From the NCBI GenBank assembly GCA_905178155.1, contig CAJINV010000014.1, positions 186,001 to 250,000 of the forward strand: a stretch of 64,000 bases of DNA. Reading direction: 5' to 3'. The notes under the pieces were generated by a model. The model saw only the letters and a program-made list of their open reading frames with translations, did not search any database and was not told where the DNA came from. Shown in pieces: positions 240 through 63,400 of this stretch. The stretch comes from Amoebophrya sp. A120. Taxonomy: Eukaryota; Protista; Dinoflagellata. Position 1 is the first letter of the stretch. Each line of letters opens with the position of its first letter. A program made the position numbers and the translations under genes.

Positions 240-3200
240 GCAGGTCACAGGCAATGGCTTTCTCGTCGCCGTTGCCGATAAATTTCCGACAGGGTGCCCC
301 GCCCGCGCCAGTTTCACCGAAGTTCGCGTCCGGTTATGAATTGCAAAAGTATCGTACTCGTATAAATCTAAATGCATGACAAATTCCCTCCGCATGAGAA
401 AAAAAAAATGTCATGCGGATTTACCTTGGGAAGAAAACTTGTAATGCATGATTGCAAATACCACGAGTACGATACTTTTGCACATGATACCGATTTCACG
501 CCGACAACAAGGTAGGCGTCGTCCACATTGTCCTCATAGGTTCCGTTCACTGCGCGGTCTTGCAGAGGATCCGTCACAATGGACAAATCCTGCTCCCCGT
601 CGGGAGCTGTATGGCCTTCTCAACTGTTACATTCTCAACTGTTACATGGATTTGTCATGCAAAAGCACCATTATCATCCTCACGATCAAGCTGCTCCGCA
701 TGACAAATCTGCGGAGGGCTAAATAGCACTATAATCCGTCCCAAATCTGTAATGCAAAAGGCGCAATCTTCCTCCTTTCACTATTGCCCTTCTTGCATTG
801 CAAATTCGTGTAATAGTTGAGAATGTATACATTTGAGAACGCCATAAGCTGCGCGGCAGGCGTTGAGGTCCGTCCAGGTGAACAGGGAGGCGACGCCGCA
901 TTTTTTATTGTGAGGAAAAATCTCCCCTCCCCATATTGAAAGCGCATCCTTCTGAAAATTTGCAATGCAGATTTGTGACCACAAATCCTGTCTGTCTTGC
1001 AAGAAGGCGAATCCTGAGAGTCCGCCGCATTATGCAGGCGGTTTGTGATGCTCTTGGGCTACTTAAAGCCTAGAGATTTGGCATGCTAGGTGCCCACGTC
1101 AAAGCCTCTGGGCAGCTCAGGCTTGGCATATGCCTGCAGTCCTCTACTGCAGCACAAATCTGATTTGTGTACGGAAATCCAGCAGCAGAAATTTCGTTCT
1201 GATATGTTGGGGAGGTGGGACTTTTCCTTTTGATACTTTTTGGGACTCAAGGTGAGGAGCTGCACCTCCACGACCACCATGGGAGAGCCCGTCAGTTCCA
1301 GCTGCCACCAAGCGCGGGGAAAGGCCGCACCAACCGCGGGCGCGCCGGAAAACATATGAGAGTGCACAACTCCACCCCCTCCCCCTCATTTGTCATGTAA
1401 AACCCCAAATCCAAGTGCTTCTCTGTGGCACTGTTTGCATGACAAATTCTGAAAGCCCAACCAGTACGACACTAGGCACATGAATTTGTCATGCACAGGC
1501 TCCACGTGTGGGTGTGCTGGTGTCTGTATTGCTGTTCATGCAATACAAATGAGGGGGAGGGGGGGTTGTGCATTTTCATAAAACAACGCGCCGGCGCTGA
1601 AGGGGTAGTTGGTGGAGAAATATCCCGAATTCACTTCCTCAATAATTTGCAATACCGTATTCCCAATCTTCTGAATGGTCGGCTGCGACTTTTGGTCCAT
1701 GCCCCTGTTTATGCATTGCAAACATGATACGACGTCCTGGGCCTGGAAGTAGAATGCGAGACTTCTTGTCATGCGAGTTGTCTAGCGCGACACTGAGCTC
1801 TGTCTTGCGTGGACAGCAAGAGCTTCTCTTGTCTGTCATGCGAGAACTACGCTGTTTGTCATGCGGAATACGCAACTACACGGAACCTCCACGAAAAAAT
1901 CTGTCATGCTTAGCGGCGCATGAGAGTATGCTTTTCATCACGACTGATATGCATCACAAGTTTCCAGACCCAACACCAGACATAAGTATTTGCAATGGAT
2001 ACTGTCCGCCGAGAAAACTGCGTTCAGACCCATGTCCACGTAAATTTTTTCCCGTACTACAGTTGCAACTGCGGTTTCTGCATCACAAAACTTGTCTCTC
2101 ATCCTAGTCTGCATCACACATAGCGTTTTACGCTTTAACTTTGCAGAATCTATTGTGATGCATTTTGTGCAACATGTTGTACGGGACCACTAAATTTGTC
2201 TTGCATAACCCACGCTCGAGACGTACGTTGACGGCAGATCATTGCTCTGCGTTGCGGTTCCGCTAAGCGGGGATATTGTGAGGAAAAATCCCCCCACCCC
2301 ATATCAAAACGAAGTTTGTAATGCTGGATTTGCGTACACAAATCAGCTTTCTCTTGCAGAAAGTACTTGGCGGCACTTCCTAAGCCTGTTCGGGTATGCA
2401 GAAGGCTAGCAATAACGCATGGAAGACGGGTTTGCAGTAGCCGAAAGCGCATGACAGATTGGCTTTGGAATGCGCCACATGGCTCCTATTGCCCTATAAG
2501 GAAGACAGAGATGATTTGTGACCACAAATCAGCATCACAAATGTTTATATTTGATATGGGGAGGGGGGATTTATTTTCATGTTGATAGGGGACTTCTTCT
2601 TCTTTTTCTTCCGGGACAGCAGGACTTTTTTCCGGAAGGCCGCAATTTCTTTCTCCGTTGCCTTTTTCCTATCGCTTGCCATCAGCTGCACGTGGTCAGA
2701 CCAGGCGGCAATCGCCTTGGCCCTCTTTGTTGATTCGTATCCAGGAAAAATAACACACCCATCCACATCCAATTTTTCATGAAAAACACGTATAATGCCC
2801 TGCGCCTGTCATGCAAAAAATGGATGGGGATGGGTTTTTTTCTCCGGATAATTCGTCCAATTCCGCTATGCGTTCCCGGAGCACATTCTCCGCTTTCTTT
2901 TTCTCTTCCGCCGTCAGGTGCTTCTCATTCTCCAAGGTCAACGCCACACGACCATCTTATCGCAGGAAAAAACTGTTTCACTGTGATGATTTTGCAAGAT
3001 CTGCATCACAAGTTTGTTACACATGGCACAGAAAATTTGTCATGCGCACTTCCCAAGGGAAAACGCCCTTAAAAATCAAATGTCTTGCATGTTTAGCAAG
3101 ACAAATAGTTTTGTGTTCCATTCCATGCATCACAAGTTCACAGTGAAACAGTTTTTTCGTGGGATACATCTTCCTGTGCCTTCATTTTCTTTTTGAGTTC

Positions 3201-6200
3201 CTCCGCTGCTTCTTCTTCTCTATGCCGTGCCTCGTCCTTATGGATTGCAAAAGTGTCTGGGTCTGAAAGATTGCAACTTGTCATGGTAAATCTGAAGCAT
3301 GAAAAAATCTGTGTTGCATGAGTGCCAAAAGCTGTCCACTTTTGACCAAGTTCGAAGGGAGTTTCTCACGCAGGACAGGCATGGCGGAGACCTCGCAGAG
3401 TCTGCCATGCTAAGTCCCGCATTCCAGACCTCATGGGTCATGGAAAATCTGCATCACAAGTCTACACTTTTCCAGACCCAGACACTTTTGCGCTTGATAG
3501 TCCTGCTCCTCGATCTTCTTTACCAGCTCCACGGCGTCCTCTTGCGCTATGGCGCTCTCAACTGTTACAATCTCAACTGTTACATGAATTCGTCATGCAA
3601 AAACAGCAATAGGGAAAGGGGTGAGCTTGCAAGTCTTGCATCACAAATCTGGCACAGATTTAGATGCTATCTAGCCCTTCGATAATTTGTCATGCTGAGC
3701 AGCTTGATTGTCTTGCGGCTTATGGTCATTTTGCATGACAAATCATGCAACAGTTGAGAATGTAACGTTTGAGAACGCCATATGCGCCTGCGCCAGCTCG
3801 GCCGCCTCTTCCCGAGCGTGCTTCGAGAACGTATCAACTGCAAAAGCGTCTGGGCCTGGAAACTTGTAATGCTAAGAATGAATGATAGACGCACTGCAAT
3901 ACGCAGCTAAGCATGACAATTTTTTTGGCTGCCATGTCTTACGTATTCCGCATGACAAACTGCGTTTCTGCATGACAGGTAAGAGGGCGTTTTCGTGCCT
4001 ATACAACACACATTCTCGAGTCATGCCAGACTAGCATGACAAATCTGGCATTCTTCCAGACCCAGACATTTTGGCATTTGATAGAACGACGCTTTTAACC
4101 AGTCCTCCCCCTCGCGCTCGCCACACAAAAAATCCATTTTGCACGCCGTCTCCGCCTCCTGCTTCTTTCGCTCGGGGGTTTTCTCTATCCTGTGCAAAAG
4201 TATCGCACTCGTATAAGTGCAAGTCTTCGTTCGTTGTGGATCGGCTCTGCCGACCGGGTAACCCAACGCCTTGCATATAAATGACCGACTTAGGCGAACC
4301 CCGTTGCGGGCATACAAATTGGCCGTACGGAAGGGCCCTAAGCGCTACATACATAGTTCACCCTAAGCGCCTACCACTTCGGTCTGGGACCTCGTCTACC
4401 TGATCCTGGGGGTCCACAGCGCACTAGCCCTTTGCTAGCATAAACAGACTGGGTTCTAAAAACTGACTTAACTCCCTCCATCCTTTCAACAGTAAGGCCA
4501 TCATAAAGGTGCGCTAAAAAAGGTTCGGGGCGCTCCGTACGGAAGGGAGCCTTTCGACGCGGCGTACACTCTCCTGGAGAGGTTTACGCGGAACACGGAT
4601 GGGCCGCGCACGCAACTCAGTCGAGGAGGACACACGCTATCCTCAATAACAGAGGCGGTAGTCCCTCACGGCGGCTGGCCTGTCTGAAGACTGTAAGCCC
4701 CACCTCCCATCTTCCCGGTTCGTCAATGACTCGGGCGAGCCATGTTACTTAGACTCCCCGCACATGCAAATATGGGACGGCTGGGGGGGTTTAAAAGGTG
4801 CTCGCGCCGTTCATGATCTACTATAAAAGAAGTCTTGCATTACAAATCTTTTTCTTATCGTAAATCCGCATGACAAATTTTATTTCTCATGCTGAGGAAA
4901 TTTGTAATGCATTTATACGAGTGCGATACTTTTGCAATGCATATTCTCGATGTTGAACTGGAGTTCCAGCTTGGAGGAAGCTCCTGCGGCTGAAGCAGAT
5001 GTTGACCTCGTCCCGCTCTGCCGCTTCATGGAGCTCGCAATGGTCGTGCTGTCCACAGCACCTCCAGTCGCATCTTTGCTGGTCCTCTTGGACCGCGACG
5101 TCTTGGTCGACGTCCCTGCCCCCGCACTTTGTTCACTTTCATCCTTCTGCGTAGAAGTTGTAGTGTCTGTTCTTGCACCAGCTGAAAAATTCTCCGAGAA
5201 GATCTTTTCTGCTACGCCCTTGAAAAAGCCGACAAACTCTCCCACTGCCGAATTCGTTTTCGTTTCATGTTGCGCGGAAGAAGAATGCGTGCCAGAAGTA
5301 GTTCCTCCTTCTTCTTGTAGCTCCTCGAGGACCTCCTGGTGCTCGCCCTGTTCTACTGCTTTCGCGGTGGAGATCATATTATCCGCATGATTTCTACTTC
5401 CTGTCGACGTTTCTTGCTGCACCACGTTCAGCTTCGCTGCAGGAAGTGCGACCTCTACCGATGGTCGACTTACTTTCGCTTTCGCAGGCACATCCAGCAC
5501 CCACTGTGAACTCCAACTGGCGGGATGAGCTTGCCCTACCCGTGGCAGTGCCTACAGTCAACATCTTCTCGTCATCTGTTGTTTTCTCATCCTGCTTTCG
5601 CTTCTCGCTTCGACTTGCTGTGGTCGAGCTTTCTTATCCTGCTCGTTGTCGTGCTTCGTATTTTTATCCGTAGATTTTTTACCTTTCCGGAAAGACTCGG
5701 TCAAAGTTGCAGTTGCACTTCTACCAGGAGCTTCATCTCCGGAGGTGGTGGAGGGCATTTTTGTGGCTTCAATTTCATCTGAAGACGCAGCTGCGGCTTT
5801 TTCTACTGAAGCGTCACTTGTCATTTTTGTGGCAGATGTTGAGGACGCCGCTTTTTCTTGGTCTTTATTCCGAGGCCCATCAACATCGAGGAGCTGAAAG
5901 CGCAGTTGCTGATTTGTGCCCGTGGTGGTCTTGATTATTTTCTTCTTTCTTCGCTGTTTCTTTGACCGAGGCAGAGGTCGTTCTTGGTCGTTTTCTGCTC
6001 TTTGCTGCGGTACTAACGGTTGTAGAGGTAATTCTTCTAATTCGCCTCTTGCCAAGTCTTGTTCGCGACGCTGCTGCTCCTCTGGTGCTGGTGCTGTAAG
6101 TCGTTTATCGGTGCTCTTTGACGTTCCTTCTTCAGCTGAGATCGCAACTTCGGATAGTTGTAACCGTGGAGCAGCAGTGTCACCAGTCGTGCCACTTTGT

Positions 6201-9593: not shown

Positions 9594-12500
9594 TTACACA
9601 ATCGCATCGTCCGTGGTTTTTATTTTCATTTCTTGGTGGCCCCCGCTCCTTTCGGCGTTATTGATAGCGTCAAACGCTGCCGCTTCCTCAGCAAATAAAG
9701 AAGTATCGTAAGGAAAAATCCCCCTCCCCATATCGAAAGCGTACCCGTCTGAAAATTTGTGATGCGCATTTGCGACCTCAAATCCTGTCTGTCTTGCAAG
9801 AAGGCAAGTCCAGAAAGCGTTCCGCATTTTGCAGGCGGTTTGTGATGCTGTTTGGCTTAGAGCATACACGTTTGCCATGCTAGGCGCCTACGTCAAAACC
9901 TCTCGACTGAGGCTTGACATATGCCTGCATTCCTCTACTGCAAGACAAATCTGATTTGTGTATGGAAATCCAGCATCAGAAACTTCGTTTCGATATGGGG
10001 AGGGGGGATTTTTCCTCACAATAAGAAGCACTACTTATTCTATCACTGTTGTCGGTCTCCAAGAAAGCCGAAGCGTCCGCGGAATCTAGTACTCCAGCAC
10101 GGCTCCCGTCCTTTGCGGGTCTCGTGATTTTCAGCAGTGCCCGCAGCTCGGCAGGCGTGAGACTGCCGCTGCGCTCGTATCTGTCCTCACCCATGTGCTT
10201 CAGGCAGGTGTTTACCGTCTATGCGAATGCACAACTGCTCGTCCTCGTGCTCCCCCACCTCGTCGTCCCGCTCAACATTTGTATGTTGGCATGAACAGCA
10301 ACAGAAAACCAGCACAGACATATTAGCTTCTGCATGACAATAACTTTAGCGTAGCAGGCGCGGTGGACAACTGTAGTGCTGTCTGCAAGATTATGCATAG
10401 CTTGCCGAAGAACCAAGTTGTCAACGCGGGCAGTATTGCAATTTTGCAATACAAACAACGGCGGGCATCAGGGGCGGGAGTCGACGCGTTGTGGTCCCTC
10501 ATACCGTCGGGTGTTGATCCGACCGGTTTTGTGCGCCGGGGGTATCTATGAACTGCAAAAGTATCGTACTCGTATAAATGCATCACAAACTTCCTCAGCA
10601 TGAGAGATAAAATTTGTAATGCGGATTTACCTTAAAAGACAGATTTGTAATGCAAGACTTGCATTTATACGAATACGATACTTTTGCACAGGATAGTATC
10701 GAAGAGTACGCGATCGTACTGCAGACAGCCCTATCAACTGCAAAAGTGTCTGGGTCTGGAAGATTGCAACTTATCATGCTGTTTTTGGACTCTAAAAAAA
10801 TTTGTATTGCGTGACCAGCAAGAGGAGTACAGTTTGTGCTACACGGACAGGGCATTTCTCATGCGGGAGGTGCATCAGGAAGCCGTTTAAAGGTCTGCAA
10901 TGCTAGGTCATGCATTACAGACACCACGGGTCATGAGAAATATGCATGACAAGTCTTGCATTCTTCCAGACCCAGACATTTTTACATTTGATAAGCCCTC
11001 CTCTGAGAGTTTGGAGCAGCCGTAGTGAAACTCGTAGTACCCGTATCGAAGAAAAAAACGTTGTTAGTGTAACTTTGTGATGCGCCTCCTGCAAAATGAT
11101 TGCGGCTGTCAACATGCTGGGCATGCACTGCAATGTCCACTTCTCAAGCGCGTTTTTGCGTAGTTTACAGTCTGCGCATGACATAAACAGACTGTGCTAC
11201 TGCGGGCGGGACATTGTGTATCAGGTGAATTGATCAACCCGAAGACGCCGCCCCCCCGGGCCCTATGGACCTGGCACTCCCCACTATACTCCTCACACAA
11301 AACGCCACCAATACAACTATAGGACATAGCCAACCACCCCGGAGCACCAGCACCAGCAACGGGGACGGAAACGGCGCAGCCCACTTCCATGACAGGTTTT
11401 CGCTCTGACAGGTTTTCGCTCTCATGCCAGACGTAATGCTGTTCCTCCATCAAAAAAGTTCTTACATACACCTATCAATTTTTTTCCTGGATAACCCGGC
11501 CGCCTGGTGCGTGGGGCAGCAACAGTACTGCACGTAGCTGATGGCTCGGTCGACCGTTTTCCGATCGTCGGGCTCCAGTTGGTCTAGATTATGGGAGTGT
11601 CAGGATTGAAATCGACAAAGTTGAAATAGTTTGTCATGCATGAAACCGATACCAGTTGGAAGCCCAATTTCCAAGCGGCGCATGACAAATTTCGGCACCG
11701 TCTAAATCCAGTTTGTCATGCTGCTTAGGGACAGAGGGCGTCTTTTGTCATGCTACTTTAGCAGCTCAATCGCAGACCCCAAACAGGCTGACAGTCGGCC
11801 TCACTTGCCATTCCTGCAAGACAAGTCACTTCGCGCCTTGCATTTTATGCATGAGAAATCATTTCAACTTTGACGATTTCAATCCTGACACTTCCATATA
11901 GATTCAGTTTCCGGTACACGGTTTTGTAGCTGGGAAACAGATATCAAATGCAAAAGTGTCTGGGTCTGGAAGAATGAAACTTGTCATGCTGATTTTGGAT
12001 TCTAAAAAAATCTGTATTGCATGAGCAGCAAAGAGAGTCCAAATTTTGCAGCACGGGAAGGGCATTTGTCATGCAGAATAGGCATCAGGAAGCCCTCTAA
12101 AAATCTGTGATGCTAGGGCATGCATCACAGACTTGAGGAGTCATGCGAAAAGTGCATGACAAACCCGGAAATCTTCCAGACCCAGACATTTTTACATTTG
12201 ATAACAGAAACAGATTCTTGGCCACGTCGGCGTAAGCGTACCGGTGCATGGGCTCGCAAACCGCGTCCCGCTCAAACGCACCAAGCGAAGAAGGCTCCGT
12301 GAGCCGGCAGAGCTTCACTTGTTGCGCCATGATGTCGTCGCCGTCGTGCTCTTTCTCGGGGTCTATGTCTTTCAGGTGCTTCTGCGCCTGTCGCGACAGG
12401 GTGTCGTTGCCTTTCGGCGCCACGTCGACCAGGGTGATGGGCGTTCGCTTCTTGGTAATTTTCAGAACCTCCACGTCGTCGTAACAGCCGGAACAGGACA

Positions 12501-15500
12501 CCAGGTTCTGCAGGTCCGCGTAGTGTTATCAAGTGTAAAAATGTCTGGGTCTGGAGGATTGCAACTTGTCATGCTAAATCTGCAGCATGCAAAAATCTGT
12601 GCTGCATGATTACCAAAACTCGTCCAGTTTTGACCAAGTCGGGAGGTAGTTTCTCATGCAGGGTAGGCATTAGAAAGGTCTCGCAGAATCTGTCATGCTA
12701 GGTCCTGCATTCCAGACCTCACGGGTCCTGGAAAAGCAGCATGACAAATCGCGCACTCTTCCAGACCCAGACACTTTTACAGTTGATAAGTGTCGGTAGT
12801 GTGCGATTTTTCCTGTGTTCGCACTCTTCCGAGCCATGCAGATGCTGTCTGTCGCGTTTTTCATCGAGGCGCTCGTCGTTGTTTGCCCCGTTTCATTTTT
12901 GTCCTCCTGGTCGTGCACGACACTGCTGTTCATCGTCCTGCTGGCACTACTAGTAGATGAAGTAGCACTTCTACACTTGCCTGGTTTGCAGGGCTCTATC
13001 AGGTCTTCCGCGTCGCAGCAGCAACTCGCGAGTAAGGGGGACGGGACCCGCTGCACCCAGCCCTCGTCCTTATTGTAGAGCGTCTCGGTTAAATCCTTCG
13101 CAAACGCGTCAAACTCTTCTGACCCAACGTTCTGGAACACGTAGGGCGGCAGCGGCTTGTCCTGGTACAGGTCCCCGGCTTTGATCTTGGTCAGGTCGCG
13201 CATGTAGAACAGGGTAAACACCTATCCAGGAAAAAACACCCACCCCCATCCATTTTTTGCATGACAAACAAAGGAATTTATGCATGTTTTGCATGACAAA
13301 TTGGATGGGGACGGGTGTTTTTTCCTGGATAACACCTCGGAGTCCACCCGCAACGCGGTTTCCGTCTTCAGAACGTCATCCGCCGCCGCCCGGTGGGAGA
13401 CCTGCCTCTCCAGTCTCCGCTCGTCCCGTTTCACCTTCTTGAACGCCGCCAGCGTCGCCCGGCTCCACGGGAGGCCGCGGAACTGCAGCACCTTATCAAA
13501 TGCAAAAGTGTCTGGGTCTGGAAGATTCCAGGAGTTTGTCATGCATCTTCTGGATCACGCAACTGGTCTCTAATGCACCGAAAAGCATTACAGGTTTTGC
13601 GCAGGCCTCCTGATGTCTATCCCGCATGAGAAATTCCCTATTTGCGTAGCAAGAAATGGGAAGCTTTTGGTGCTTATGCAATACAAATTTTTGCCTATTC
13701 CAGAAATCGCATGACAAGTTCCAATTCTTCCAGACCCAGACATTTTTGCATTTGATACACCTGGACCGCAAACAACATGCCGAGGGCGATCACCTCGGCC
13801 GGAACTTTGCTCTTCTCTTTACCCGTTTCCGCGTCCGCAAATTCGTGCTGCTGGTTCTCGTCCGGGTTGGAATTGCTGCCCTCCGCTTGTTATGCATTGC
13901 AAATATGTCTGGGTCCTCTGGAGCAAGAATTCACACTTGCGATGCGCATTTTGCAATCCATGAAAATCTCTCATGCACAGGCAGCAAAAGCTGCCCACTT
14001 TCTGTCACCAGAGTGGGGCATTTGTGATGCGGATTCGGCATTGCGGAAGCTTCTCGGAACTTGTGATGCTAGAGCTTCCATGACAGGCCTTCTGTGTCAT
14101 GCAAAAGCAGCATGACTCTTCCAGACCCGCCAGACATATTTGCTGCAATCCATACTTGTTGTTCCGCAACGTCGTCCTTTTTCTCCTCCAAAACTGCGCG
14201 GCCCTTAGCGAGCATCTCCAGTGCCAGGTCCGCGGACTGCCGGTTTCCGATCGGGTGCCTATGGATGTGTCAGAGTTGAAATCGACAAAGTTGAAATGAT
14301 TTGTCATGCTAAACCGACCGAAACCACTACACAACCTGAAATGATTTGTCATGCATAAAATGCGACACAAAGACTGACTCTATTGCTGAAGGCGCAAGGG
14401 AGGCAAATTCTAGTGCTGCTAAGGGTCAAGCTCAAGCATTGGGCTGCTGACTAGCATGACAGGGAGCAGCCATCTTGCCCTGAACAGCATGACAGACTTG
14501 CTTCAGAGGCCAGGAAAATTTGTCATGCGCCGATTGGAAACTGTGGGTCCAACTGCTATAGATTTTATGCATCACAAATTATTTCAACTTTGTTAATTTC
14601 AACCCTGACAGTTCCATAGTGCCGGTGGGAAAAGTACCGCTGCCACGCGTTCTCCCCCACGGGGTCCTGAAAGTGCTTTTTCAGCCGATCGTAAAAAACC
14701 AGCCACGGGTTGCGCGGCTCGAAAATGGTCACATTCTGCTGGATATGCATTGCAAATATGTCTGGGTCTGGAAACATTGAACTTGTAATGCTAGTCCTAC
14801 ATTCCTGTAAAATCTGTATTGCATGACTAACGAAACGACGCCTCCTTTTGTGATATTTCTCATGCGGACTGCGCTTAAGAAAGTGTCCGGAAAACTTGTC
14901 ATGCTTGGCTGCATTGGGAAGTATTTCAGTCATGTACATTTCAGCATCACAAGTTTCCAGACCCAAACATATTTGCAGTTGGTACTGCAGATCGTAGTCC
15001 CATTCCTTCCGGAAAGCCTTGTACAGCATGTCCGTGATGAGTTTCAGCATCGGCGGAAATTTATAAATCGCAAAAGTATCGCACTCGTATAAATGCATTA
15101 CAAATTTCCTCAGCATGAGAAATAAGATTTGTAATGCTAATTTGCCTTAAGGACAGGATTTGTAATGCATGACTATAATACGAGTGCGATACTTCTGCAC
15201 AGGATAAAACTTCACGTCGTCTCGCGCCTCCATGCGGTGTAGATCTGCGCGGACGGCGGTTTGCAACCGCTTCACGTGCTATCCCGGGGAAAAACGTCTC
15301 CACCGACCCATAACCATACGTCAAGTTGGAACTACGTGTGGTGCACCACAAATCCGGAAGTTTTGGGAGCGCCACGCCTGTCAAGTTCTTGCAGTCTGTA
15401 GTGTAGTGCCGGTCGTTAGCAAGGACAGCTGCATTACAAATCCATTCGTCTATGCTGGTGTTTCCAGCGTCACAAATTCCAAATTGAAAATGCCTATCAT

Positions 15501-18500
15501 GGGGATGCGCATCACAAATGTTCCTGTCATTCTAAATCTGCATGACAACTCTGGGAGTGGGGACGTCGGCTTTGCTCAGGATACGCGCAGTGGGAGGTCT
15601 TCGTTCTGGATCTCACCATACTGGTCTTCTCGCAGTTCCAGGTCTTGTATGGAAGTGCACAAGTTCCCCTCATTTGTGTTCGCGTAGCATGAACAGCAAT
15701 ACAAACACCAGCACTCATGGAGTCTGAGCATCGCAAGTTCATGCGCCGACTGTAGTAGTGTTTTGGGCGTCCTGAGTTTGTCATGCAAATAGTGCTACAA
15801 GGCAGCAATTGGATTTGGGATTTTGCATGACCAATGAAGACGAAGAGGGGACGACAAGCGGAGTTATGCGTTCTCATACCTCGCTCCTTGTCCAGCGCGG
15901 GAAGGTCGCTTGCCTCGAACATATATCCACAATAAAATAACATTGTCCGCACACCTAGACCTACAGGTACAGACGCGCCGCGGTTTCTGATTCTGCATGA
16001 CAAAACTTGCATTCGATCCTACTAGTCAGAAAGGCAAGCGTTAATACACTCTAAAGTGGCGAAGTAGTTTGTCGTGATGCATTTTTTAGTATCTGTGCGG
16101 GAGATGATCAAGATTATTTGTGTTCTTGCGTAGCATGTTGATCTGGTCCACGAGACTGCGTTCCTCGTGCTGTATTTTTTCCAAGGTGGTCACGTCCTCC
16201 AAAACTTTGAGCAGCTGCACCCCGGTGGTCTCCCTGCGCCACGGCAAGTTCGCGAACATCTCGCACTGCGCCAAAAATTCAAGCACCAGCGCAATCAGGA
16301 CCGGCAGCGGAATTTCCTGGAAACGCTTCCGGAAGAGCATGGACGGCGTCATAATCAGGGGATCGTCAATGCCGTCGGTCTGGGCAGAAATGGGATCCGC
16401 GTTCGCGTCGCTATACGTGCGCCGAAAGTCTGTCCGCGGACTCAACACGTCGAGCTCTACGTACTTGGCCTTGTTTATCCCACAGAAAAAAGCTGGCAGG
16501 TCACATTTGTAATGCAAAAACAAATACACAAAAAAATCTGTATTGCGTATCCTAAACAGCACGCTATGAGGCCGCCCATGACAGATTTTTCTGTGTATTT
16601 ATTTTCGCATTACAGATATGACCTGCCAGCTTTTTTCTGTGTGATATTGTTGTCTTCCAGAAATTTTTGGAACCGCTCAGCTATGCATTGCAAAAGGATC
16701 GTATTTCAAGTTTTACGTTGAAAAAGAAAAATTCTCAAGCTGTAATGGTAGTTTACGTTTAAGTTAGGAGACAGATCTGTCACGCCAGACTGTGATGAAG
16801 ATTCGTACAAGTGCGATGCTTTTGTTGCAGCGCATATCACTCCAGTCCTCCTCCTGGTCGGGATCGTCTTCCGGGTCCCCCTCCTTTCGGCGCCGGAACA
16901 GGTCACTCTTGAGCATATCCAGGAAAAAACACCCATCCCCATCCATTTTTTGCATGACAAACACAGGACTTTATGCATGTTCTGCATCGCAAATTGGATG
17001 GGGATGGGTGTTTTTTCCTGGATAGAGCACCTCTTCCACCAGCGTGGCCAGTTCCAGGGCTAGCTGAACGGTGTTGTCGTCTATGGCTAGGTGCTTGTTG
17101 CGATCCAACAGGGGCAGCAGATAATCCGCGAGGAGAAATTGCGCAAAAAACAGCTCGCTATCCGGCACGACGGCGTTGCGGTCCGCTAAAGCATCTTGCT
17201 CCTTCTTCACAGCCTCTTGCAGCAGCTTATGGCGTAGTTCTCAAACGTTACTACTACGGTTTCAGCCCTTACACAAATTTGTGACGCTGCAGCAACCTCA
17301 TTTATATAGTGAAAGTGCCAGTGAGGCGACTTTGCGCGTTTTGTATTGCAAAATTGGCATTGTAGGTTCGAATGCTATGTATTTAGCGCGTCGAGAACTT
17401 GTGCTGCGAAAAAGCACTTGAATAGATCCGTGAAACAAGCGTGACAGTAATTGTTCTGCAAAACTACTCATGTATACAGAAACAGCTGGGGATGTAATTA
17501 CTTGAGAATTCCATACAGCTTCTCCTTGTGCATGTCCAGCACCTGGGTCGCGAGCCGATGGTCGTCGTGGTCCATCACCAGTCCTTGCAGTTCGCCATTT
17601 CTATCCTTCAAGCAGATGAAGTGCCGATCCAGGTCCTCTATCGAAGAAAAAAACTGTTTCAGTGTAACTTTCTTCATCTTGTTCGGCTGACAGCATCACA
17701 AATTCGCTCTGCATGATGAGTGGGTCCTGCGTGGCTTGTAAGCAGGGAAAACACGACACATGAGCAGAGGACTTTATGGTTGTCTGGCATGACAGGCGTA
17801 TGCGTAACTCGCCACGTCTGTTGGAACATGTTGTGCATTGATTACAGGGTTACACTTACACAGTTTTTTTCTTGCACATCCTCCGGAATGTGGTTAATCC
17901 AGTCGCTTCGGTGTTTGGCATCGGTTTCCGAGGGGGGCAGCTCCAGGACGTTGGCTAGCTCGGTCTTTTTCAGCAGGCTCACGCCCTCCGCGTAGCACTT
18001 TTCGTCCACCGGCCGGCACCGGAGCCCCGGCTCTCCGCGTACCGTGTTCACACGACAACAGCTCTTGTAAGGAAACATCCCCCCTCCCCATATTATTGCC
18101 AAACAAGCACGTTTTCGAAGATTTGTGTTGCTGATTTGTGACCACAATAAATCGTGCCTGTCTTGGAAGAAGGCAACTCCACAGGTGGCTCCGACGCATT
18201 GGCATTATGCAGGCGGTTTGTCAACATGCTGTTGGGTCTACAGCGCGGACGTTTTTCATGCTAAGCGCCTAGGCCCGAGCCTCTCTACTCAAGCTTGATA
18301 TGGGTCTGCAGTCCTCTACAGCAAGACAAATATCTGATTTGTGTACGCAAATCCGAATCGAAATCCAGCATCAGAAACTTCGTTTTGATATGGGGAAAGG
18401 GGATTTTTCCTTTTGATAACAGCACGAATCGGGTTTGTTCAGGCGGACGACGATGTCCTTCCCGTCCGGCGTGTCCTGGTACTTCGCATAAATGGCGGCG

Positions 18501-19043
18501 CAGATGTCGTTTTGCAAGAGCAGCTGGGGATCAATAGCCTTCGCGGCCTCCTGGGAAATATTATCCGGTAGTTTGCAGCTCGTGTCGTTGCTGTTTTGCG
18601 GTAGCAGGCAGTGCCTTCTGCCATTGCCCTCGATGCAGCAACAACCGGTGGCTTCCCACAAGTAATCGTGCTGCTTGTTCGCGATCACCCGCAATATCCA
18701 CTGCAAATATACATTTTTTCTTACCGGCCATCACGTACCAAAACTTTTGTTGGCATTCTTGCATGACAATAAACTTGGTACAACTGAAAGTGAAACAGAA
18801 ACGTGATTCAGAACAGCAACTTGTGGTCTGCTTCTGCGCACGTCCTCTCAGGTTGTAGTGCATAGTTGTGTGTCCGGTATTGTACTAGTAGGGAGGTACT
18901 AAAAAGCTCGTAAATTTGCATTGCATAGCCCCGCCTTCCTCATCGCTCCGCCTTCTGATTTTCTGCTGATGCTTATCTTCAAGCTGAAGAACAGTGTGAG
19001 CCTCAGTGGTTGTAGTTTTCGGGGATTGTATACGTGGCCTCAT
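9594..19043 (-). CDS. Large hypothetical protein with Cys-rich segments, interrupted by 24 introners
   Basis: Hand splicing gives a continuous frame from MRPRIQSP... through GCCCIEG, DSCCCRV, ASCCCDA, YVQYCCPTH to ...TTDDAIV*. One junction near 15924-16101 is only approximately resolved. No family recognised. Confidence 0.75.
9704..10023. mobile_element. Introner family D
   Basis: D-type TIR; TSD AGAAG. Confidence 0.92.
10220..10503. mobile_element. Introner, I-like (diverged)
   Basis: TATG...CACAAC inverted ends; TSD CCGTC. Confidence 0.82.
10547..10695. mobile_element. Introner family B
   Basis: B-type TIR; TSD GTATC. Confidence 0.92.
10732..10993. mobile_element. Introner family A
   Basis: A-type TIR; TSD AGCCC. 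Confidence 0.93.
11044..11493. mobile_element. Introner family J-like, enlarged (450 bp)
   Basis: TATC.A.GAAAAAAA inverted ends; TSD ACCCG. Confidence 0.85.
11590..11898. mobile_element. Introner family F
   Basis: TIR TATGG.AGTGTCAGGATTGAAATCG.CAAAGTTGAAAT; TSD TAGAT. Confidence 0.93.
11942..12203. mobile_element. Introner family A
   Basis: A-type TIR; TSD ACAGA. Confidence 0.93.
12527..12788. mobile_element. Introner family A
   Basis: A-type TIR; TSD AGTGT. Confidence 0.93.
13223..13331. mobile_element. Introner family E
   Basis: E-type TIR; TSD ACACC. Confidence 0.93.
13494..13757. mobile_element. Introner family A
   Basis: A-type TIR; TSD CACCT. Confidence 0.93.
13891..14154. mobile_element. 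Introner family H
   Basis: TIR TATG.ATTGCA..AATATGTCTGG; TSD CTTGT. Confidence 0.9.
14260..14618. mobile_element. Introner family F
   Basis: F-type TIR; TSD GTGCC. Confidence 0.92.
14744..14984. mobile_element. Introner family H
   Basis: TIR TGCAAATATGT.TGGGTCTGGAAAC; ends TAT/GTA; TSD CTGGA/CTGCA. Confidence 0.88.
15062..15206. mobile_element. Introner family B
   Basis: B-type TIR; TSD AAATT/AAACT. Confidence 0.9.
15280..15583. mobile_element. Introner family G
   Basis: TIR TATCC.G.G.AAA..ACGTC.CCAC; TSD CGTGC/CGCGC. Confidence 0.85.
15648..15878. mobile_element. Introner family I
   Basis: I-type ends; TSD TCTTG/CCTCG; reading frame restored on removal. Confidence 0.82.
15924..16101. 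mobile_element. Degenerate introner
   Basis: Left end TATCCACAATAAAA; internal GCATGACAA; right boundary approximate. Confidence 0.5.
16476..16646. mobile_element. Introner family K (almost entirely a foldback)
   Basis: Long TIR of about 70 bp, TATC.CACAGAAAAAAGCTGGCAGGTCA.AT.TGTAATGC...; TSD TTGTT. Confidence 0.93.
16682..16836. mobile_element. Introner family B (diverged)
   Basis: B-like ends; TSD TCAGC/TCACT; reading frame restored on removal. Confidence 0.8.
16916..17024. mobile_element. Introner family E
   Basis: Near-perfect TIR of about 30 bp; TSD GAGCA. Confidence 0.93.
17228..17515. mobile_element. Introner family C (diverged)
   Basis: TATGG..TTCTCAA ends; TSD CAGCT. Confidence 0.85.
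17639..17878. mobile_element. Introner family J
   Basis: AAGAAAAAAACTGT inverted ends, TAT...ACA; TSD TCCTC. Confidence 0.87.
18063..18418. mobile_element. Introner family D
   Basis: D-type TIR (left end TCT); TSD ACAGC. Confidence 0.87.
18695..18927. mobile_element. Diverged introner (H/B-like ends)
   Basis: TATCCACTGCAAAT / ATTTGCATTGCATA; TSD no longer matches, but removal of element plus 5 nt restores the frame. Confidence 0.65.
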
Positions 19044-20987
19044 GCGTAGGCGTAGTGCTAGTGCGTCCACGCATGGTATGCAATACCAAATATAGCCGCC
19101 GGGGCGGGGCGGGTAGTGAGGTCGTGGACGTTTTTTTGCCGGCCGCAGCCTTGGCCGCGGCTTTGCTTTTTATGGGCTCGCCATACCACCGCGAGTAACG
19201 TTATGCCGCACGGTATGGCGGCCACTTGGGAAACGTCGCAAATTTTGGCACATTTCCAAAATTCCTTTCCGAAAGCCAGCCCCGATGCTATGGGGCCGAT
19301 CCGGGTGCCACGGGGGGCGCCCAAAAAGCGAAGAAAAACCGGGCCCATAGCATGCGGATTGGCTTTGCGCGTGTGGGCCGCTTTTTCTTTTTCGCGTTTT
19401 TATTTTTCACGCCGGCGCTTTTTGCAAAGCTTCCCAGGCACTGCAACCGGCGAAAAGGCGGCCGCTTTCGCGGCCGCCCAAAATGCTCCGAAATCGCGGC
19501 CGTGCTATGCTGTTTCGCTGTTCTGATTTTGGGCGCGTTTTTTGCGCGCCCCTTTTTGGGAGCCCCAAATCGCCAGAAACTAAGGCGGTGGGCGCCTCAG
19601 AAGGGCGCCCCTTTTGCCGGCTCCCCTGCGTCGTTTTATCAAGTGCGAATCGATAGTTTTCGACCGGGCTTGTTTGATATCAAAGCCCCGGCCGCTTCAT
19701 AATTGAAAATTTTTTCTGTCAAAAAACACTTCCGCCCGCTTGAAAACTGACGGCCGTTTTTCAGGGTATATTATGGCAAAAAAACTCCCCGGTTAGAACC
19801 GTTCGGTGACCTCACTACATACAAACCTGTTTGCGTTTCCCTGCAACATTGACATTTAGCATGCACCTCAAGTCCGCAAAAAATACACAACCCCTTGAAG
19901 CTACACACTTTTCTGGTTGATAGTGCTGGTGTCGTCGGGCCGTGGCTGCAGCTGCGCCCGTATGGAACCAGGTATTTTCGTGGATCAGTACAACGCCTGG
20001 CAGGAAAGTGGAGATAGGCAAAACCAGCTGCCAAAGGAGAAACACAAACACAACGACCGAAGCTGAAGCACATTTACTTGTTGCTTCTACTTGGAAGCCG
20101 AAGCGATGTTGCCGGCCGACAGGAGCACATGGTCTTGACATTTTTGATGTCAACAACGCCTGACGCTGAGGCGGAGTCATCTTGCTCGTGGCCGTTTTGT
20201 CCCAACTTCTTGTGCGCCAGTTCATCTTTTTACCGCAAGCATTATGAGCAGGCGATCTTGAGCTAGGTAGTGTGCCTAGTAACGAGATGCTCCTGTAAAA
20301 CTCTTGTACTAAAAAGAACTCTGCGATGACACGACCATGGAGGAAAGATGAGATCACTCCAATACTTTACATATCACAAACCACGTTTTCTCCTAAATTC
20401 CGAAAAGAGCATCTTCACACGTTCTTGATCTTCTACGTTGATCTTCACTGTGACTTCTTCTGTCGTGCAAAAGACCTGGATGTGCATGATATTTCCCGCA
20501 TCTGCTGCCGCGGGGTATGTCGAGGCGGGACCACGGGGGCTACCCTTTGTTCCTTTCTGCGAAAAATTGCACTTTACGCAGCTGCGTCGTCAAGAACTGC
20601 ACCCGTGACTGTAAAAGAGTACTATGCCCAGGCTCAAGGTGTTGGTGTTGAAACTCCTGGCTGCATAGAAGAAATAAACACGCAGCATCGGCTTTGGCTC
20701 TGGATGCGCCCCCGCGGAAATCTATCAGATACGACTTGGTCAAAAGGCGGCACAGCAAGGAACAAAAAAGGAAACGATTTCATCTGTGGAGAAATATTTC
20801 GTGTGCGGGGGGTTGTTCTATGGCATTCATTTACTTTTTTTTTTTCATCTCGACTATTTACAAATTTTCTAGTCCTGCTTGTCCTTGTTCTGTCTTTCCA
20901 CTGGCATGATCCGAGTATGGTCGTGCTGCTGCCGAATGTTGTATATGAAACCCCAAAATATCAAAATCACCGCTCTCGTGGTCCCCA

Positions 20988-37427: not shown

Positions 37428-37468
37428 ATAAGAAATTCTCCTGCAGTGGAAGTTTTCGTTTTTGATGC

Positions 37469-55170: not shown

Positions 55171-55209
55171 TCTTGTCCGTCGATGAACATGAAAGCTACA
55201 AATCTACAT

Positions 55210-56348
55210 TCAAAAACAACAACACAGAAAATAAATGCTGCCTCGCTGGAAAAGTGGTAGAAATGGCTCAAGGTAGTACAAAGATGATGAAATAACTGCT
55301 ATACCAGCTGCGCTCAAGGTGGAGGAGATCATTCCGCGCTCCGCCAGAATACTAAGCCCCCGACTCCCTTGTCGCGCTTTCGGCCGGGTCTGCTGTGTTG
55401 TGCCTACAGTACTACCCGGCGGTGGAGGTGGTGGACCGCTCGCGCTCGCCGTGCTCGGCGGCGGCGCGTTCGTTTCAGCTGGTGCTCCCGGCAACATTGG
55501 TGGAGCAGGATTGTCGATGTTACTACCACTTCCACATCCACCGCCGGGATTGGAAGAGGCAGCGCCGGAAGCCGAACTGCTTGTGGTCGTTGGGGGCGGG
55601 CCACCATGATTACCACCTGCGGCCCGGTGCAGCTGTAAACTGATGCCATTTGTCGTGGTAGCGAGTTGTACTAGAAGCAGCAGTATCGAATGTAAAAGTG
55701 TCTGGGTCTGGAAGGTTGGAACTTGTGATGCTGTCTCTGGATTCTAAAAAAAATTTGCATTGCATGACCAGCAACAGAACTCCAGTTTGTGCTACCCGGA
55801 GAGGGCATTTCTCATCCATGCGGTAGAGGCATCACACAGGCCTCTAAAAATCTGTCATGCTAGAGCATGCATCACAGACATCATGAGTCTTTCAAAATAT
55901 GCATGACGAACCTTGCAAGCTTCCAGGCCCAGAAATTTTTACATTTGATAAGCAGCTGCACGAGAACAACCCCGGCAGAGGTCGTGGTGGTACAACACAG
56001 GGTGGATAGAAGGCAGCGTATGGATGTGTCAGAGTTGAAATCGACAAAGTTGAAATAGTAATTTGTCATGCATAAAATGCGACACAAAGACTGACTCTAT
56101 TGCTGAAGGCGCAAGGGAGGCAGATTCTAGTGCTGGTAAGGGTCAAGAATTGGGCTGCTGACTAGCATGACAGGGAGCAGCCATCTTGCCCTAAACAGCA
56201 TAACAGACTTGCTTCAGACGAGGCCAGGAAAATTTGTCATGCGCCACTTGGGAACTGGGTTCCAACTGGCATCCATTTTATGCGTGACAAATTATTTCAA
56301 CTTTGTCGATTTCAACTCTGACACATCCATACAGCGCATGCAGGCCAT
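55210..56348 (-). CDS. Hypothetical protein with signal-peptide-like N-terminus
   Basis: Removing introners 56019-56331 and 55684-55950 gives MACMRCLLSTLCCTTTTSAGVVLVQLLLVQLATT..., in frame with ORF 55210-55497. It may continue into downstream ORFs. Confidence 0.6.
55684..55950. mobile_element. Introner family A
   Basis: A-type TIR; TSD AGCAG. Confidence 0.92.
56019..56331. mobile_element. Introner family F
   Basis: Perfect TIR of about 39 bp; TSD CAGCG. Confidence 0.95.
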
Positions 56349-59109: not shown

Positions 59110-59290
59110 CCCAAATCTGAATCTCTCGAATCTGAATGCCCCGAGTCTGAATATTTCAAATCTGAATGTCTCGAGTCTGAATATCTCAAATCTGAATGTC
59201 TCGAGTCTGAAAATGATCTCAAATCTGAATATCTCAAATCTGAATATCTCAAATCTGAATGTCTCAAATCTGAGACCTCAAATCTGAAAT
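59110..59290 (+). repeat. 15-bp tandem repeat TCTCAAATCTGAAT[AG]
   Basis: About 11 imperfect copies. Confidence 0.92.
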
Positions 59291-59309
59291 ATCGCGAGAA
59301 TCGAGACTC

Positions 59310-59472
59310 GAGATTCCAGATTTGAGATTCCAGATCTGAGATTCCAGATCTGAGATTCCAGATTTGAGATTCCAGATTTGAGATTCCAGATTTGAGATTC
59401 CAGATTTGAGATTCCAGATTTGAGATTTGAGATTCCAGATCTGAGATTCCAGATTTGAGATTCCAGGTCTGA
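59310..59472 (+). repeat. 14-bp tandem repeat GAGATTCCAGAT[TC]T
   Basis: About 11 near-perfect copies; its core is the reverse complement of the preceding array's core. Confidence 0.95.
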
Positions 59473-60415: not shown

Positions 60416-63400
60416 TCACACCTCCTCAATCTGTAAATCGTGACTTTCCCTTTCATACTCCGGTGCAGGTCGTTTGGATTTGGAGCTGCTTGGCGTGAGC
60501 TGAAACGCCTGGTCTGCTTGCAGATCCGTTGTTCCCCCGGCCCCGCTTTTCGAATTGGATGGACTCGAGCTGTGCAATTGCTTTGTCAGCACACCGTAGT
60601 GGGCTTGCAGTGCATCAGAAACGTCGCCGAAGTGGTTCGGGTTCTCGAGGTACCTGGAGATGCGGTTGTTTCAGGTTTATTTCTGTCCTGCTCGGGTAGT
60701 TGTTCTCGCTCTAGGTGACCAGGGGACTCATCTCATTCTGTTACTCATGTCGAAAAAGATCATCAAGTCTGTATGTTTTATATGCATGCCCCCAGCGACG
60801 TTGTTGCGTGCAAAGAAAAGAACGCCGCAGCTACAGTGCTACGAGTGATGAAGTTCTGTGCGATTGAAGAAATTACAACTCGTCCATACATCCTCTTTAA
60901 TCAGTATCAGCCCTAGAAGTTGCTGTCGCTGAGCTGTGCATGTGCTACTTCTACAACAACAGCCTAATCCTAAAAATCTACAAATCGTACCAGTCCACCG
61001 TTCTTTGCAGCCCCTCTTCCCACGTGGTGTTTACTTTCCAGCCCAGCGCTTCCAGCTTCACACTGGTGGTGAGGTAGCTCTTGTCGTTATCCTGAGTAAA
61101 AACGTCCCCACACCAGAGTCAGGATGGAGATTTTGCAACACGAGCCGAGGAGTTTTGTGAGTCACGCATGACAAGCTGCACTCCGCAGTGTAGTGCAGGT
61201 TAGCAAGTGCAGCCGCATCAAAGATTCATCTGCTCATCCTGTTCACAGCATCACAAATTCCAAAAGACAATTGGAAATGGCTCTCATGGGGCTGCGCATT
61301 ACAAGTCTTGCTGTCTTTGCAAATCTGCATTACAACTCTGGTGTGGGGACGGTTTTTACTCAGGATAGTCGTTGAAAGCCCGGTCTTTGACGTACTGAAA
61401 GTACCGCTTGTCTTATGACAGTGCACAACTCCACTCCCCCTCGTTTGTCATGCAAAATACCAAATCCAGTTCCAGGCTGTGCCTCTTGGCACTGCTTGCA
61501 TGACAAACTCCGGAAGGAGCCCAAACAGTACTACACTCCTGCGCAAAGTTCTCATGCAAAACCAGCATTCTTTCTGACGCTTGTACTGCCGTCCATGCTA
61601 TACAAATGAGGGGGGGAAGGAGTTGTGCACCGTCATATGTCTTGACTGTCAACGTTCGCGATGTCGCCCTGCTCCTTTCCGAGAGCGACCAGGACGCTTT
61701 TCAGCACTTCCAGGTTGCTATCAAGTCGAAAAATGTCTGGGTTTGGAAGACTCGTGCTGTTTTTGCATGACACAGAAGGTCTGGCATGGAAGCTCTAGCG
61801 TCACAGGTCTTGAGAAGCTTCTGCAATGCCGAATCCGCATGACAAATCCCCCACTTTGGTGAGAAATAGTGGGTAGCTTGAGCTTTTGCTACCTATGCAT
61901 GACAGATTTATCTGTGTTCTGAAATGCGCATCACAAGTGGTTCTTCTTCCGGACCCAGACATATTTGCAATCCATAGTTGCTTCGTTCCTGCGGTTGCGA
62001 GATGTTGTAGGTCTCGAACGTTGTGCCCTTGCGCATGATCACATCAAAAGCGGAGACAACGTCGTCGATGAACAGGAAGCTCCGCGTGTTCGTCCCATCC
62101 CCGTGGACTATGCACCGCAAAAGCAATTATCGGATTATATCCCACCAGAGCACAAAGTTTTTTTTTTTTAATGCCGTCCTTTTCCTCACTTTATCCCCCA
62201 GCTTGATGCTGACATATCTTATAAGCATAACCGCAATTATTTCTTCCATGGGCTACCACTAAGCATAAGCAACTTGCGGCAAATTTCATTTCTGTTGTGT
62301 ACAGAATTAGAATGCAAATGCAACGAACAGCAACGTTGGCGTTGCTATGATTCACACGATGTGGATAATCGCGATTTAGACTTTTGTATTGCATATGCAC
62401 CGGGAAAGGCATATTTCGGTTAAACAGCGCGATGGATTTTGGGATCAACTTTTCGGGCCACTGCCGAGGACCGAAAACATTGTTAGGCCTGATTCGGTTT
62501 GTTCCTTTTCAAATTTCAAGCATCGCCCTGCTCCATTCACGGTAAGAATGGGGCGGAAAAAACTCATCAGCGCCACAACATGATTGGAGCGACCTTCTGC
62601 CATTATATGCATTACTCATAATTGTGTCACCCCATAGTGGTTTATCAATTTGATAAAGAACAGTCATAAATTTCTAGTAGAGCCCCCGCAGGCAAATAAA
62701 ACTCAGTATACCTGACGACGATGCTGGGGAGGCGAAAGCTGAAACTGAACCCGCGCACCAGGCACTCTGCGGCGGCTTTGCTCGCCGAGTAGGGGTTGGT
62801 TGGGAGCATCTGGTCGTTCTCGCTCACCCGTCGGTTTTCCTCGAAGCTGAGGTCGCCATAGACCTCGTCAGTCGACACGTGAATGAACCTTTCCAGCGTC
62901 GGGCAGCGAATCGCGGCTTCCAGCAAGATATGCATTGCAAAAGTATCGTACTCGTAGTAATTGCTGTCGTGCATGACAAATCTCGCTTTTTAGGAAAAAT
63001 AGCATTACAAATTGCATTTTTCTTCTTGAAAAAATGCGTGATGCAATTTATACTAGTACGATACTTTTGCAATGCATACAAGACGTGGGTCCCATTCACG
63101 TTGGTCCGCACAAACTCGTCGGACGCCGTGAAAGATCGATCCACGTGGGACAGCGCGGCGAAGTGGAACACGCAGTCGAACCGGTGCTGCTCGAACAAGG
63201 AGCGGACCAGATTTCGGTCGCAAATGTCCCCGCGAACGAACCAGTAGTTCGCGCACTCGTCTGCTAGGTCCTTTATATTTTTCGGGTTTCCACAGTAGTC
63301 CAGCTTGTCCAGGTTGACAAATTTCGTGCGGGGGTACGTAGTCACGAGCCATCGCAGGACATTCGACCCGATGAACCCGCAGCCGCCCGTGAAAAGCACA

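What the first reader, a model, noticed from the sequence alone, without database searches (positions are those of the whole stretch)
610..61976. The same introner family is removed in either orientation
Seen: all host genes are on the minus strand, yet family members lie in opposite orientations: C 610-846 vs 33934-34175; G 40767-41043 vs 61088-61367; H 13891-14154 vs 61719-61976; F 11590-11898 vs 56019-56331. Inference: the excision signal must be symmetric (the TIR stem and TAT/ATA termini) rather than a directional donor/branch-point/acceptor set. Classical introners usually carry a directional splice site.
Basis: partly seen in the sequence, partly recalled or inferred. Interest (0 to 1): 0.82.

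Follow-up and report, generated by a model that had tools for sequence, protein, structure and literature searches.

The report
Transposon introns spliced in both orientations
In the marine parasite Amoebophrya A120, small transposon-like insertions lie in genes in both directions and are missing from transcript-like assemblies either way, likely because the cell cuts the RNA at fixed distances from their mirror-image ends (one base before, four after) instead of at the usual GT-AG signals.

Summary
Observation confirmed. All four cited pairs are reverse complements, and 9 of 9 families with three or more copies hold both orientations (15 of 44 copies in the minority direction; 14.2 expected at 50:50). 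The window is Amoebophrya sp. A120, and the elements are its published introner elements: TAT…ATA inverted ends and a 5-nt target duplication. Contigs of probable RNA skip exactly element+5 nt at 12 of 12 listed element joints of one gene, including opposite-oriented copies of two families. The C and G pairs have no joint-level read evidence. Either-orientation introners are already described (Polarella, Aureococcus), and the cut is directional. At 10 sites where the two duplication copies differ, only one register fits all: N-TAT…ATA-NNNN in transcript sense. The 2021 genome paper left these borders 'unknown'. The geometry parallels Euglena's N3-CAG…CTG-N5 code, and it puts T and A at intron +2/+3, as in a normal donor. 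Most likely a relaxed spliceosome reads motifs that the inverted repeat supplies at both ends (0.5). A separate stem-measuring machinery is the main rival (0.33). Known elements; the splice rule was not found in print.

The parts
610..846 (.). Family C element; 5-nt target duplication; host gene on minus strand
   Evidence: inside a 579-aa ORF restored by removing 13 elements; no joint listed
3548..3782 (.). Family C element, opposite orientation to 610, same host ORF
   Evidence: (interior rc 128 vs 33)
33934..34175 (.). Family C element, opposite orientation to 610
   Evidence: at the 3' end of a 989-aa ORF; no read test
11590..11898 (.). Family F element; joint skips element+5 nt
   Evidence: junction present in P0001
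14260..14618 (.). Family F element, opposite orientation to 11590, same transcript; joint skips element+5 nt
   Evidence: (interior rc 141 vs 29)
56019..56331 (.). Family F element, opposite orientation to 11590; host strand least certain
13891..14154 (.). Family H element; joint skips element+5 nt
11942..12203 (.). H-group element, same direction as 13891; joint skips element+5 nt
13494..13757 (.). H-group element opposite to 11942; joint skips element+5 nt
   Evidence: (interior rc 107 vs 22 against 11942; only 47 vs 20 against 13891)
61719..61976 (.). Family H element, opposite to 13891, in the dTDP-glucose dehydratase gene
   Evidence: no read test
40767..41043 (.). Family G element in a TMEM43-domain gene
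   Evidence: Pfam PF07787 positions 64-151 upstream and 155-248 downstream in the restored frame; no read test
61088..61367 (.). Family G element, opposite to 40767
15280..15583 (.). Family G element opposite to 40767; imperfect duplication allows register k=3-5
   Evidence: contig-length arithmetic
18695..18927 (.). Old element with diverged duplication; only k=4 fits P0001
35678..36036 (.). Old element; k=0-3 creates an in-frame stop, k=4-5 keeps the frame open
15924..16132 (.). Degenerate element with weak stem; contig edge at 16134 gives k=1-4
9597..20366 (-). Host gene with 25 elements; 1240-codon ORF after removal (193 unspliced); matches A120 protein P0001
20988..25128 (-). Dihydroorotate dehydrogenase gene with 8 removed units (one nested); matches A120 protein P0003 at all 665 residues
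40155..43205 (-). TMEM43-domain gene with 3 elements; 767-codon ORF after removal
60981..63756 (-). dTDP-glucose 4,6-dehydratase-like gene with 5 elements and one predicted GT-AG intron (62489-62711)

Best explanation
These are Amoebophrya A120 introner elements with TAT...ATA inverted ends and a 5-nt flanking duplication that lie in both orientations and are skipped as element+5 nt in contigs of probable RNA, likely by a relaxed U2-type spliceosome that is predicted to cut 1 nt before TAT and 4 nt after ATA on the transcript. Steps: (1) Insertion in either direction with a 5-nt target duplication, as non-autonomous DNA transposons: duplication and both orientations shown, transposition inferred. 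(2) Removal of element plus one duplication copy, which restores the original coding sequence: shown at 12 listed joints. (3) Fixed register N-TAT...ATA-NNNN set by transcript direction: inferred from 10 sites. (4) Because each end is the reverse complement of the other, every copy offers N-U-A-U-(G/C)...AAAA at its 5' end and UUUU-N7-AUA-NNNN at its 3' end whichever way it lies: follows from the sequence. (5) The spliceosome would read U+2/A+3 and the 3' motif while ignoring terminal G+1 and AG, with end pairing as a helper: inferred, untested.
For: Identity: exon queries hit A120 proteins at 100%, and the ends match the published A120 motif TAT-N7-AAA (PMC7789003). Duplication: perfect 5-nt repeat in 43 of 53 elements picked by inverted ends alone and in 49 of 67 finally; perfect repeats of length 4, 6 or 7 in 0 of 67. 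Removal: 12 of 12 listed element joints are L+5, and contig lengths across unlisted joints fit to the base (747/747, 1509/1509, 1581/1581). Register: mismatches to P0001 (last 1090 aa) plus P0003 (665 aa) are 9, 7, 3, 1, 0, 4 for k=0..5. A stop codon excludes k<4 at 35678. A contig edge gives k=1-4 at 15924. Seven of 10 informative sites exclude the mirror register k=1, and none excludes k=4. Machinery: 83 of 89 spliceosomal proteins found, U1 snRNA not detected, and 15% of A120 canonical introns share the DR/IR layout (PMC7789003). k=4 places T at +2 in 65 of 65 and A at +3 in 64 of 65 (TAT-like ends were the selection criterion). No transcript-strand G-U excess, and a weak-stem copy is removed. 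A fritillarid spliceosome handles TIR-derived non-GT-AG introns.
Against: No lariat, circle or splicing intermediate was seen, so the machinery is pure inference. No GT/AG preference at all, whereas G+1 and the terminal AG are core spliceosome contacts (established knowledge). Position +5 is C in 33 and G in 29 of 65, a poor match to a donor beyond +3. k=4 against k=3 rests on two sites with badly diverged duplications (18695, 35678). One site (18974-19922) does not fit L+5 at my boundaries: P0001 has an extra Gln. The register comes mostly from gene-model proteins, not from reads. No single family has informative sites in both orientations. X1 and X2 are one sample, and RNA is the tool's guess. 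All host genes lie on one strand, so transcript direction cannot be separated from chromosome direction here.
Confidence: 0.5

Rival explanations
1. Same elements and same fixed register, but a separate, non-spliceosomal machinery measures 1 and 4 nt from the paired TAT/ATA motif, cuts and ligates, as proposed for Euglena nonconventional introns.
For: Euglena uses a palindromic CAG...CTG motif with fixed unequal spacers of 3 and 5 nt, shown by knock-ins, with a distinct machinery suggested (PMC12501133 passages). There is no terminal dinucleotide preference here. Both opposite-oriented F copies fold into a long terminal stem on the transcribed strand (z -9.8 and -7.0). U1 snRNA was not detected in A120.
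Against: No G-U over A-C excess on the transcribed strand (48 vs 52, p=0.76); sense duplex more stable in 38 of 65, p=0.32. Copies with end duplexes of -8 to -13 kcal/mol are still removed. The register lands T/A on +2/+3, which a stem-measuring enzyme would not need.
Confidence: 0.33
2. The cut slides or varies within the 5-nt duplication, as the 2021 paper's figure legend says, and the k=4 pattern is a product of gene-model building or of the small sample.
For: PMC7789003 Fig. 3 legend calls the sites variable and the border unknown. 49 of 67 duplications are perfect and carry no register information. Site 18974 is irregular. Only two sites separate k=4 from k=3.
Against: Ten of ten informative sites allow k=4 and no other value fits all. 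Models were built from transcript alignments, and an aligner cannot slide across a mismatch without creating one (inference). The contig edge at 16134 agrees.
Confidence: 0.12
3. The elements are removed from DNA (precise excision, or alleles without the insertions), so the joined contigs are not spliced RNA.
For: A perfect empty site looks the same as a spliced junction. X1/X2 are only guessed to be RNA, and no DNA run was laid as a control.
Against: The joined contigs show 0 other letters in the listed pieces of this gene, lack all 25 elements of different ages, and end near the gene limits (9297-9369 and about 20277-20293). Depth falls to 0.09-0.75 in the gap at 8672-9338. The polarised register is hard to get from a strand-symmetric DNA reaction. 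A120 non-canonical introns are RNA-seq supported.
Confidence: 0.05

Closest known systems
Amoebophrya A120 introner elements (Farhat et al. 2021, PMC7789003)
   Same: Same organism, TAT-N7-AAA inverted ends, 3-5-nt direct repeats, non-GT-AG borders, hairpin potential, many families.
   Different: Same elements. In the text I could read, the paper gives no count of orientations within families and calls the borders variable or unknown. Here: both orientations about 50:50, duplication always 5 nt, one register. Its figures 3, 4 and S19-S25 were not visible and may already show the 1/4 offsets.
Euglena nonconventional introns, N3-CAG...CTG-N5 then purine (PMC12501133)
   Same: Palindromic end motif, paired ends, no GT-AG, fixed unequal spacers (longer on the 3' side), MITE-like origin proposed; register found from non-slidable introns.
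   Different: Other motif (TAT/ATA), spacers 1 and 4, no purine preference at the next exon base (first downstream exon base A12 C15 G16 T16 of 59), unrelated lineage, recent repeat families with clear 5-nt duplications.
Either-orientation introner-like elements of Polarella glacialis and Aureococcus anophagefferens (10.1101/2020.10.14.339549; Aureococcus as cited there)
   Same: TIR elements with target duplications that make introns in both orientations and leave the mRNA unchanged.
   Different: Those use GT/GC/GA...AG sites from element or duplication, need particular target sequences and show an orientation bias. Here target sequence is free, no GT/AG is used, and no bias was detected in 44 copies.
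Fritillaria borealis non-canonical introns (via review PMC11282704 and abstract start of PMC13326754)
   Same: TIR/TSD-derived introns outside the GT-AG rule in a genome that keeps a spliceosome.
   Different: Fritillaria has preferred end dinucleotides (AG-AC, AG-AT); here the first base and the last four are free.

Membership tests
Amoebophrya A120 introner elements | Genome is Amoebophrya sp. A120 | tested here: met
   P0001 and P0003 are 100% identical to window exons and named A120 by their sources
Amoebophrya A120 introner elements | Inverted repeat starting TAT, seven variable bases, then at least three A | tested here: met
   T65/A64/T64 of 65 at positions 1-3 and A in 46-58 of 65 at 11-14, both ends
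Amoebophrya A120 introner elements | 3-5-nt direct repeat at the borders | tested here: met
   5 nt perfect in 49 of 67; 43 of 53 in the set picked without using the repeat
Amoebophrya A120 introner elements | Repeated families removed from transcripts at non-GT-AG borders | tested here: met
   9 families; 12 joints in contigs guessed to be RNA; no dinucleotide bias
Amoebophrya A120 introner elements | Splice sites variable relative to the hairpin (as the paper's legend states) | tested here: not met
   One register fits 10 of 10 informative sites; 1 further site irregular
Euglena nonconventional introns | CAG at +4..+6 and CTG at -8..-6 | tested here: not met
   Motif is TAT at +2..+4 and ATA at -7..-5
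Euglena nonconventional introns | Paired ends with fixed unequal spacers | tested here: met
   Stems fold; spacers 1 and 4 inferred
Euglena nonconventional introns | Excision as circular RNA | not testable with these tools
   Needs intron-product sequencing
Aureococcus/Polarella-type either-orientation introners | Introns made in both orientations | tested here: met
Aureococcus/Polarella-type either-orientation introners | GT/GC/GA-AG sites from element or duplication | tested here: not met
   Intron +1 is A11 C16 G17 T15 of 59 at k=4 and the last two bases show no AG preference
U2-type spliceosomal introns | Branch point and lariat intermediate | not testable with these tools
   No conserved branch motif was identified; needs lariat sequencing
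MITE / non-autonomous TIR DNA transposon | Cognate transposase with matching ends | not tested
   No whole genome was held for this window; no transposase search was run

The most novel reading that the evidence does not exclude
Amoebophrya A120 has a spliceosome, apparently without U1 snRNA, that defines introns by an internal palindromic code, N-UAU...AUA-NNNN, with no fixed first or last base. Any copy of its TAT...ATA transposons would then be a scarless intron at any target site and in either direction, which would explain some 30,000 insertions. It would be a second, independent origin of a Euglena-like 'palindrome plus fixed spacers' splice code.
Probability: 0.4. Interest if true: 0.85.

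Novelty: new variant of a known kind. Interest (0 to 1): 0.6.

Why it matters
How Amoebophrya removes tens of thousands of introns without GT-AG, and where their borders lie, was left open in the genome paper. A fixed register gives exact borders for re-annotation and says where to look for a branch point or a circle junction. It also gives a designable minigene and a direct comparison with the Euglena code. Orientation- and target-independent scarless removal would explain why these transposons could spread through coding exons at little cost. Orientation independence alone is not surprising for inverted-repeat introners. The register and the absence of any GT/AG carry the interest.

Tried and rejected
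No whole genome was held, so there are no genome-wide counts. Run search: no holder on record as RNA. One search listed 15 of 75 joints: 12 are element joints, 2 are element-to-element jumps from other copies, and 1 (523-872) is unexplained. Read-level evidence for the C and G pairs and a DNA control were not obtained. No annotated protein was found for the gene at 223-5551 (0 hits), which leaves sites 335, 906 and 1710 untested. Catalogue edits: 9 of 62 candidates were dropped by inspection as internal, chimeric or tandem-repeat picks, and 12 were added, partly by using the duplication. 9242-9542 was dropped because contigs run through it. 15924, 22127 and 2048 were added after frame or contig breaks pointed to them. 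21 of 65 elements had no family at the threshold used. Of 18 imperfect duplications, 10 were informative, 4 synonymous, 3 untested and 1 irregular. The test for RNA-strand selection on the stem was negative. Frame restoration alone cannot tell L+2, L+5 and L+8 apart in most genes; the joints do. A scan for further GT-AG introns between ORFs was too ambiguous to give a donor consensus. Table S4 of PMC7789003 has T at +2 in all 9 predominant A120 motifs. I do not count it as support, because 8 of 9 also have A at -2, a pattern that an aligner sliding towards GT-AG could produce (aligner behaviour recalled, not checked). Earlier-findings look-up returned nothing. Huff et al. 2016 was not held.
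Full report
Observation. The four cited pairs align far better as reverse complements than on the same strand (272 vs 89, 409 vs 54, 269 vs 48, 251 vs 82). This holds with the inverted ends stripped off (186 vs 26, 332 vs 17, 208 vs 22, 155 vs 31; shuffle maxima 23-27). The final catalogue has 67 elements (edits are listed under Tried and rejected). In the 65 clustered, 44 fell into nine families and every family held both orientations (8:2, 4:4, 1:4, 2:2, 3:1, 2:2, 2:1, 2:1, 2:1). The minority count of 15 matches 14.2 expected at 50:50. A perfect 5-nt direct repeat flanks 43 of 53 elements picked by inverted ends alone and 49 of 67 overall; no perfect repeat of 4, 6 or 7 nt abuts any.

Host genes. 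Removing each element with 5 nt joins minus-strand ORFs: 1240 codons across 25 elements (193 unspliced), 579 across 13, 672 across 8, 989 across 2, 767 across 3. Ten of the cited and related copies checked carry stops in all three frames, as does an eleventh, so retention would break the protein (11 of 11). Pfam places dihydroorotate dehydrogenase, TMEM43 and a GDP-mannose/dTDP-glucose dehydratase on the minus strand, with profile positions continuing across elements (205-249 then 251-291 across 21175; 1-107 then 110-181 across 62929; 64-151 then 155-248 across 41164 and 40767). The host of 56019 has only a 106-182-codon minus ORF and no Pfam hit. Two exon searches returned 100%-identical proteins named Amoebophrya sp. 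A120 (P0001; P0003).

Removal. Contigs of runs X1 and X2 (one sample; RNA is the tool's guess) each hold one record across the 25-element gene. Twelve of the 15 joints shown (of 75) are element joints, and all twelve skip element+5 nt. They include opposite-oriented F copies (11590, 14260) and opposite-oriented H-group copies (11942, 13494). Record coordinates across unlisted joints fit the prediction to the base (747, 1509, 1581), which covers G copy 15280. The records end near the gene limits and depth is near zero in the gap at 8672-9338, as RNA would give. P0001 and P0003 add a third family removed in both orientations in gene models (10547 and 15062 vs 21175). The models may derive from related data, so they are not independent of the contigs. 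The C pair and G copy 40767 have no read evidence, and no DNA control was laid. Splicing efficiency by orientation could not be measured.

Where the cut falls. With a perfect duplication the junction can sit at any of six registers (k = duplication bases kept from the upstream copy). Eighteen duplications are imperfect, and ten are informative: 15280 (k 3-5), 15648 (2-4), 15924 (0-4), 16682 (2-5), 18695 (4), from P0001; 21783 (1-4), 22127 (3-5), 22619 (2-5), 23472 (1-5), from P0003; and 35678 (4-5, by an in-frame stop). Only k=4 fits all. Total mismatches to the two proteins are 9, 7, 3, 1, 0, 4 for k=0..5 (the first 104 residues of P0001, holding site 18974, were left out of that count). The contig piece ending at 16134 with no other letters gives k=1-4 directly. 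The intron is therefore inferred to be N-TAT...ATA-NNNN in transcript sense. Seven sites exclude the mirror register. With a third to a half of copies in the minority orientation, that argues the register follows the transcript and not the element, although no one family has informative sites in both directions. Against this: k=3 is excluded by two sites only, and at 18974 P0001 has one extra residue, so my 3' boundary there does not fit.

What is read. The 5' end and the reverse complement of the 3' end have near-identical base counts over 20 positions, with TAT at 1-3 and A at 11-14 conserved across families. The flanking duplication has no base preference, so no GT or AG is used. Both opposite-oriented F copies fold into a long terminal stem. 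But the stems show no sign of selection on the transcribed strand (G-U 48, A-C 52), and a copy with a -8 kcal/mol end duplex is removed. At k=4, T and A fall on +2 and +3, where a normal donor has them; +5 is C about as often as G. One predicted GT-AG intron in the window (62489-62711) begins G-TAT and has the same five bases at both borders in this register. That is consistent but weak, since CAG-G borders are common.

Mechanism. Most likely (0.5) a relaxed spliceosome reads linear motifs that the inverted repeat supplies at both ends; A120 keeps 83 of 89 spliceosomal proteins and U1 snRNA was not detected. The main rival (0.33) is a separate machinery measuring from the paired motif, as proposed for Euglena. 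A sliding cut (0.12) and DNA-level removal (0.05) are less likely. Steps shown: both orientations, 5-nt duplication, L+5 skipping. Steps inferred: RNA nature of the contigs, register, machinery.

Literature. PMC7789003: abstract, passages, sections 10 and 25 in full, supplement text search and parts 3 and 5 of 5; figures not visible. It describes these elements, their TAT-N7-AAA ends and direct repeats, and calls the borders variable or unknown. 'Strand' occurs 0 times in its main text, and the uses of 'orientation' that I saw concern gene clusters. [quoted passage not shown] 10.1101/2020.10.14.339549 (passages) reports either-orientation introners in Polarella and cites the same for Aureococcus. 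PMC9860276 (passages) allowed opposite orientations in its method and names Amoebophrya only in a reference. PMC12130899 (passages) covers A120 but required 5'-to-5' alignment; its datasets were not read. PMC12501133 (passages) gives the Euglena code. PMC11282704, PMC13326754 and PMC11453091 were seen as passages. Seven searches found no paper giving orientation counts or a fixed register for A120; subscription journals are mostly outside this library.

Verdict. The feature is real. What is added is orientation independence without any GT/AG and a single asymmetric register, which makes the open question of the Amoebophrya splicing mechanism directly testable. Interest 0.6.

Noticed in passing
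window 22127-22505: A remnant outer element holds two younger elements (22140-22363, 22387-22496), one inserted inside the outer inverted repeat; about 35 nt of the outer element remain. P0003 and homolog P0006 fit removal of the whole unit. It may need stepwise removal, like a twintron.
   Followed up: partly
window 62489-62711, minus strand: Predicted GT-AG intron starting G-TAT with the same five bases at both borders in the k=4 register; possibly an old element whose target happened to supply AG-G.
   Followed up: partly
window 4186-4943, 18974-19922, 28331-29053: Unusually long elements (723-949 nt); the first and third look like family members with internal insertions. Raw reads of another sample matched part of the 18974 element at about 19700-19744.
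   Followed up: no
window 523-872: A joint at depth 48.5/22.6 with unknown letters between, not matching the 610 element borders; possibly a paralog or another locus.
   Followed up: no
window 59050-59470: Tandem array of a 14-nt unit with inverted copies nearby, not a TAT...ATA element.
   Followed up: no
18 imperfect duplications across the window: Mismatches by duplication position 1-5 number 7, 8, 4, 2, 7 (counted); position 4, next to the inferred cut, differs least. Too few to be significant.
   Followed up: partly
window 5561-8536 and 43300-51800: Long stretches with minus-strand ORFs (992, 387, 817 codons; one SpoU methylase) but no accepted elements, next to a gene with 25; insertion density is very uneven.
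   Followed up: no
PMC7789003 Table S4: A25's predominant motifs are all TT-NN and its inverted repeats start TTA-R-R, which would again put T and A at +2/+3 in the sister strain; aligner bias is not excluded.
   Followed up: no
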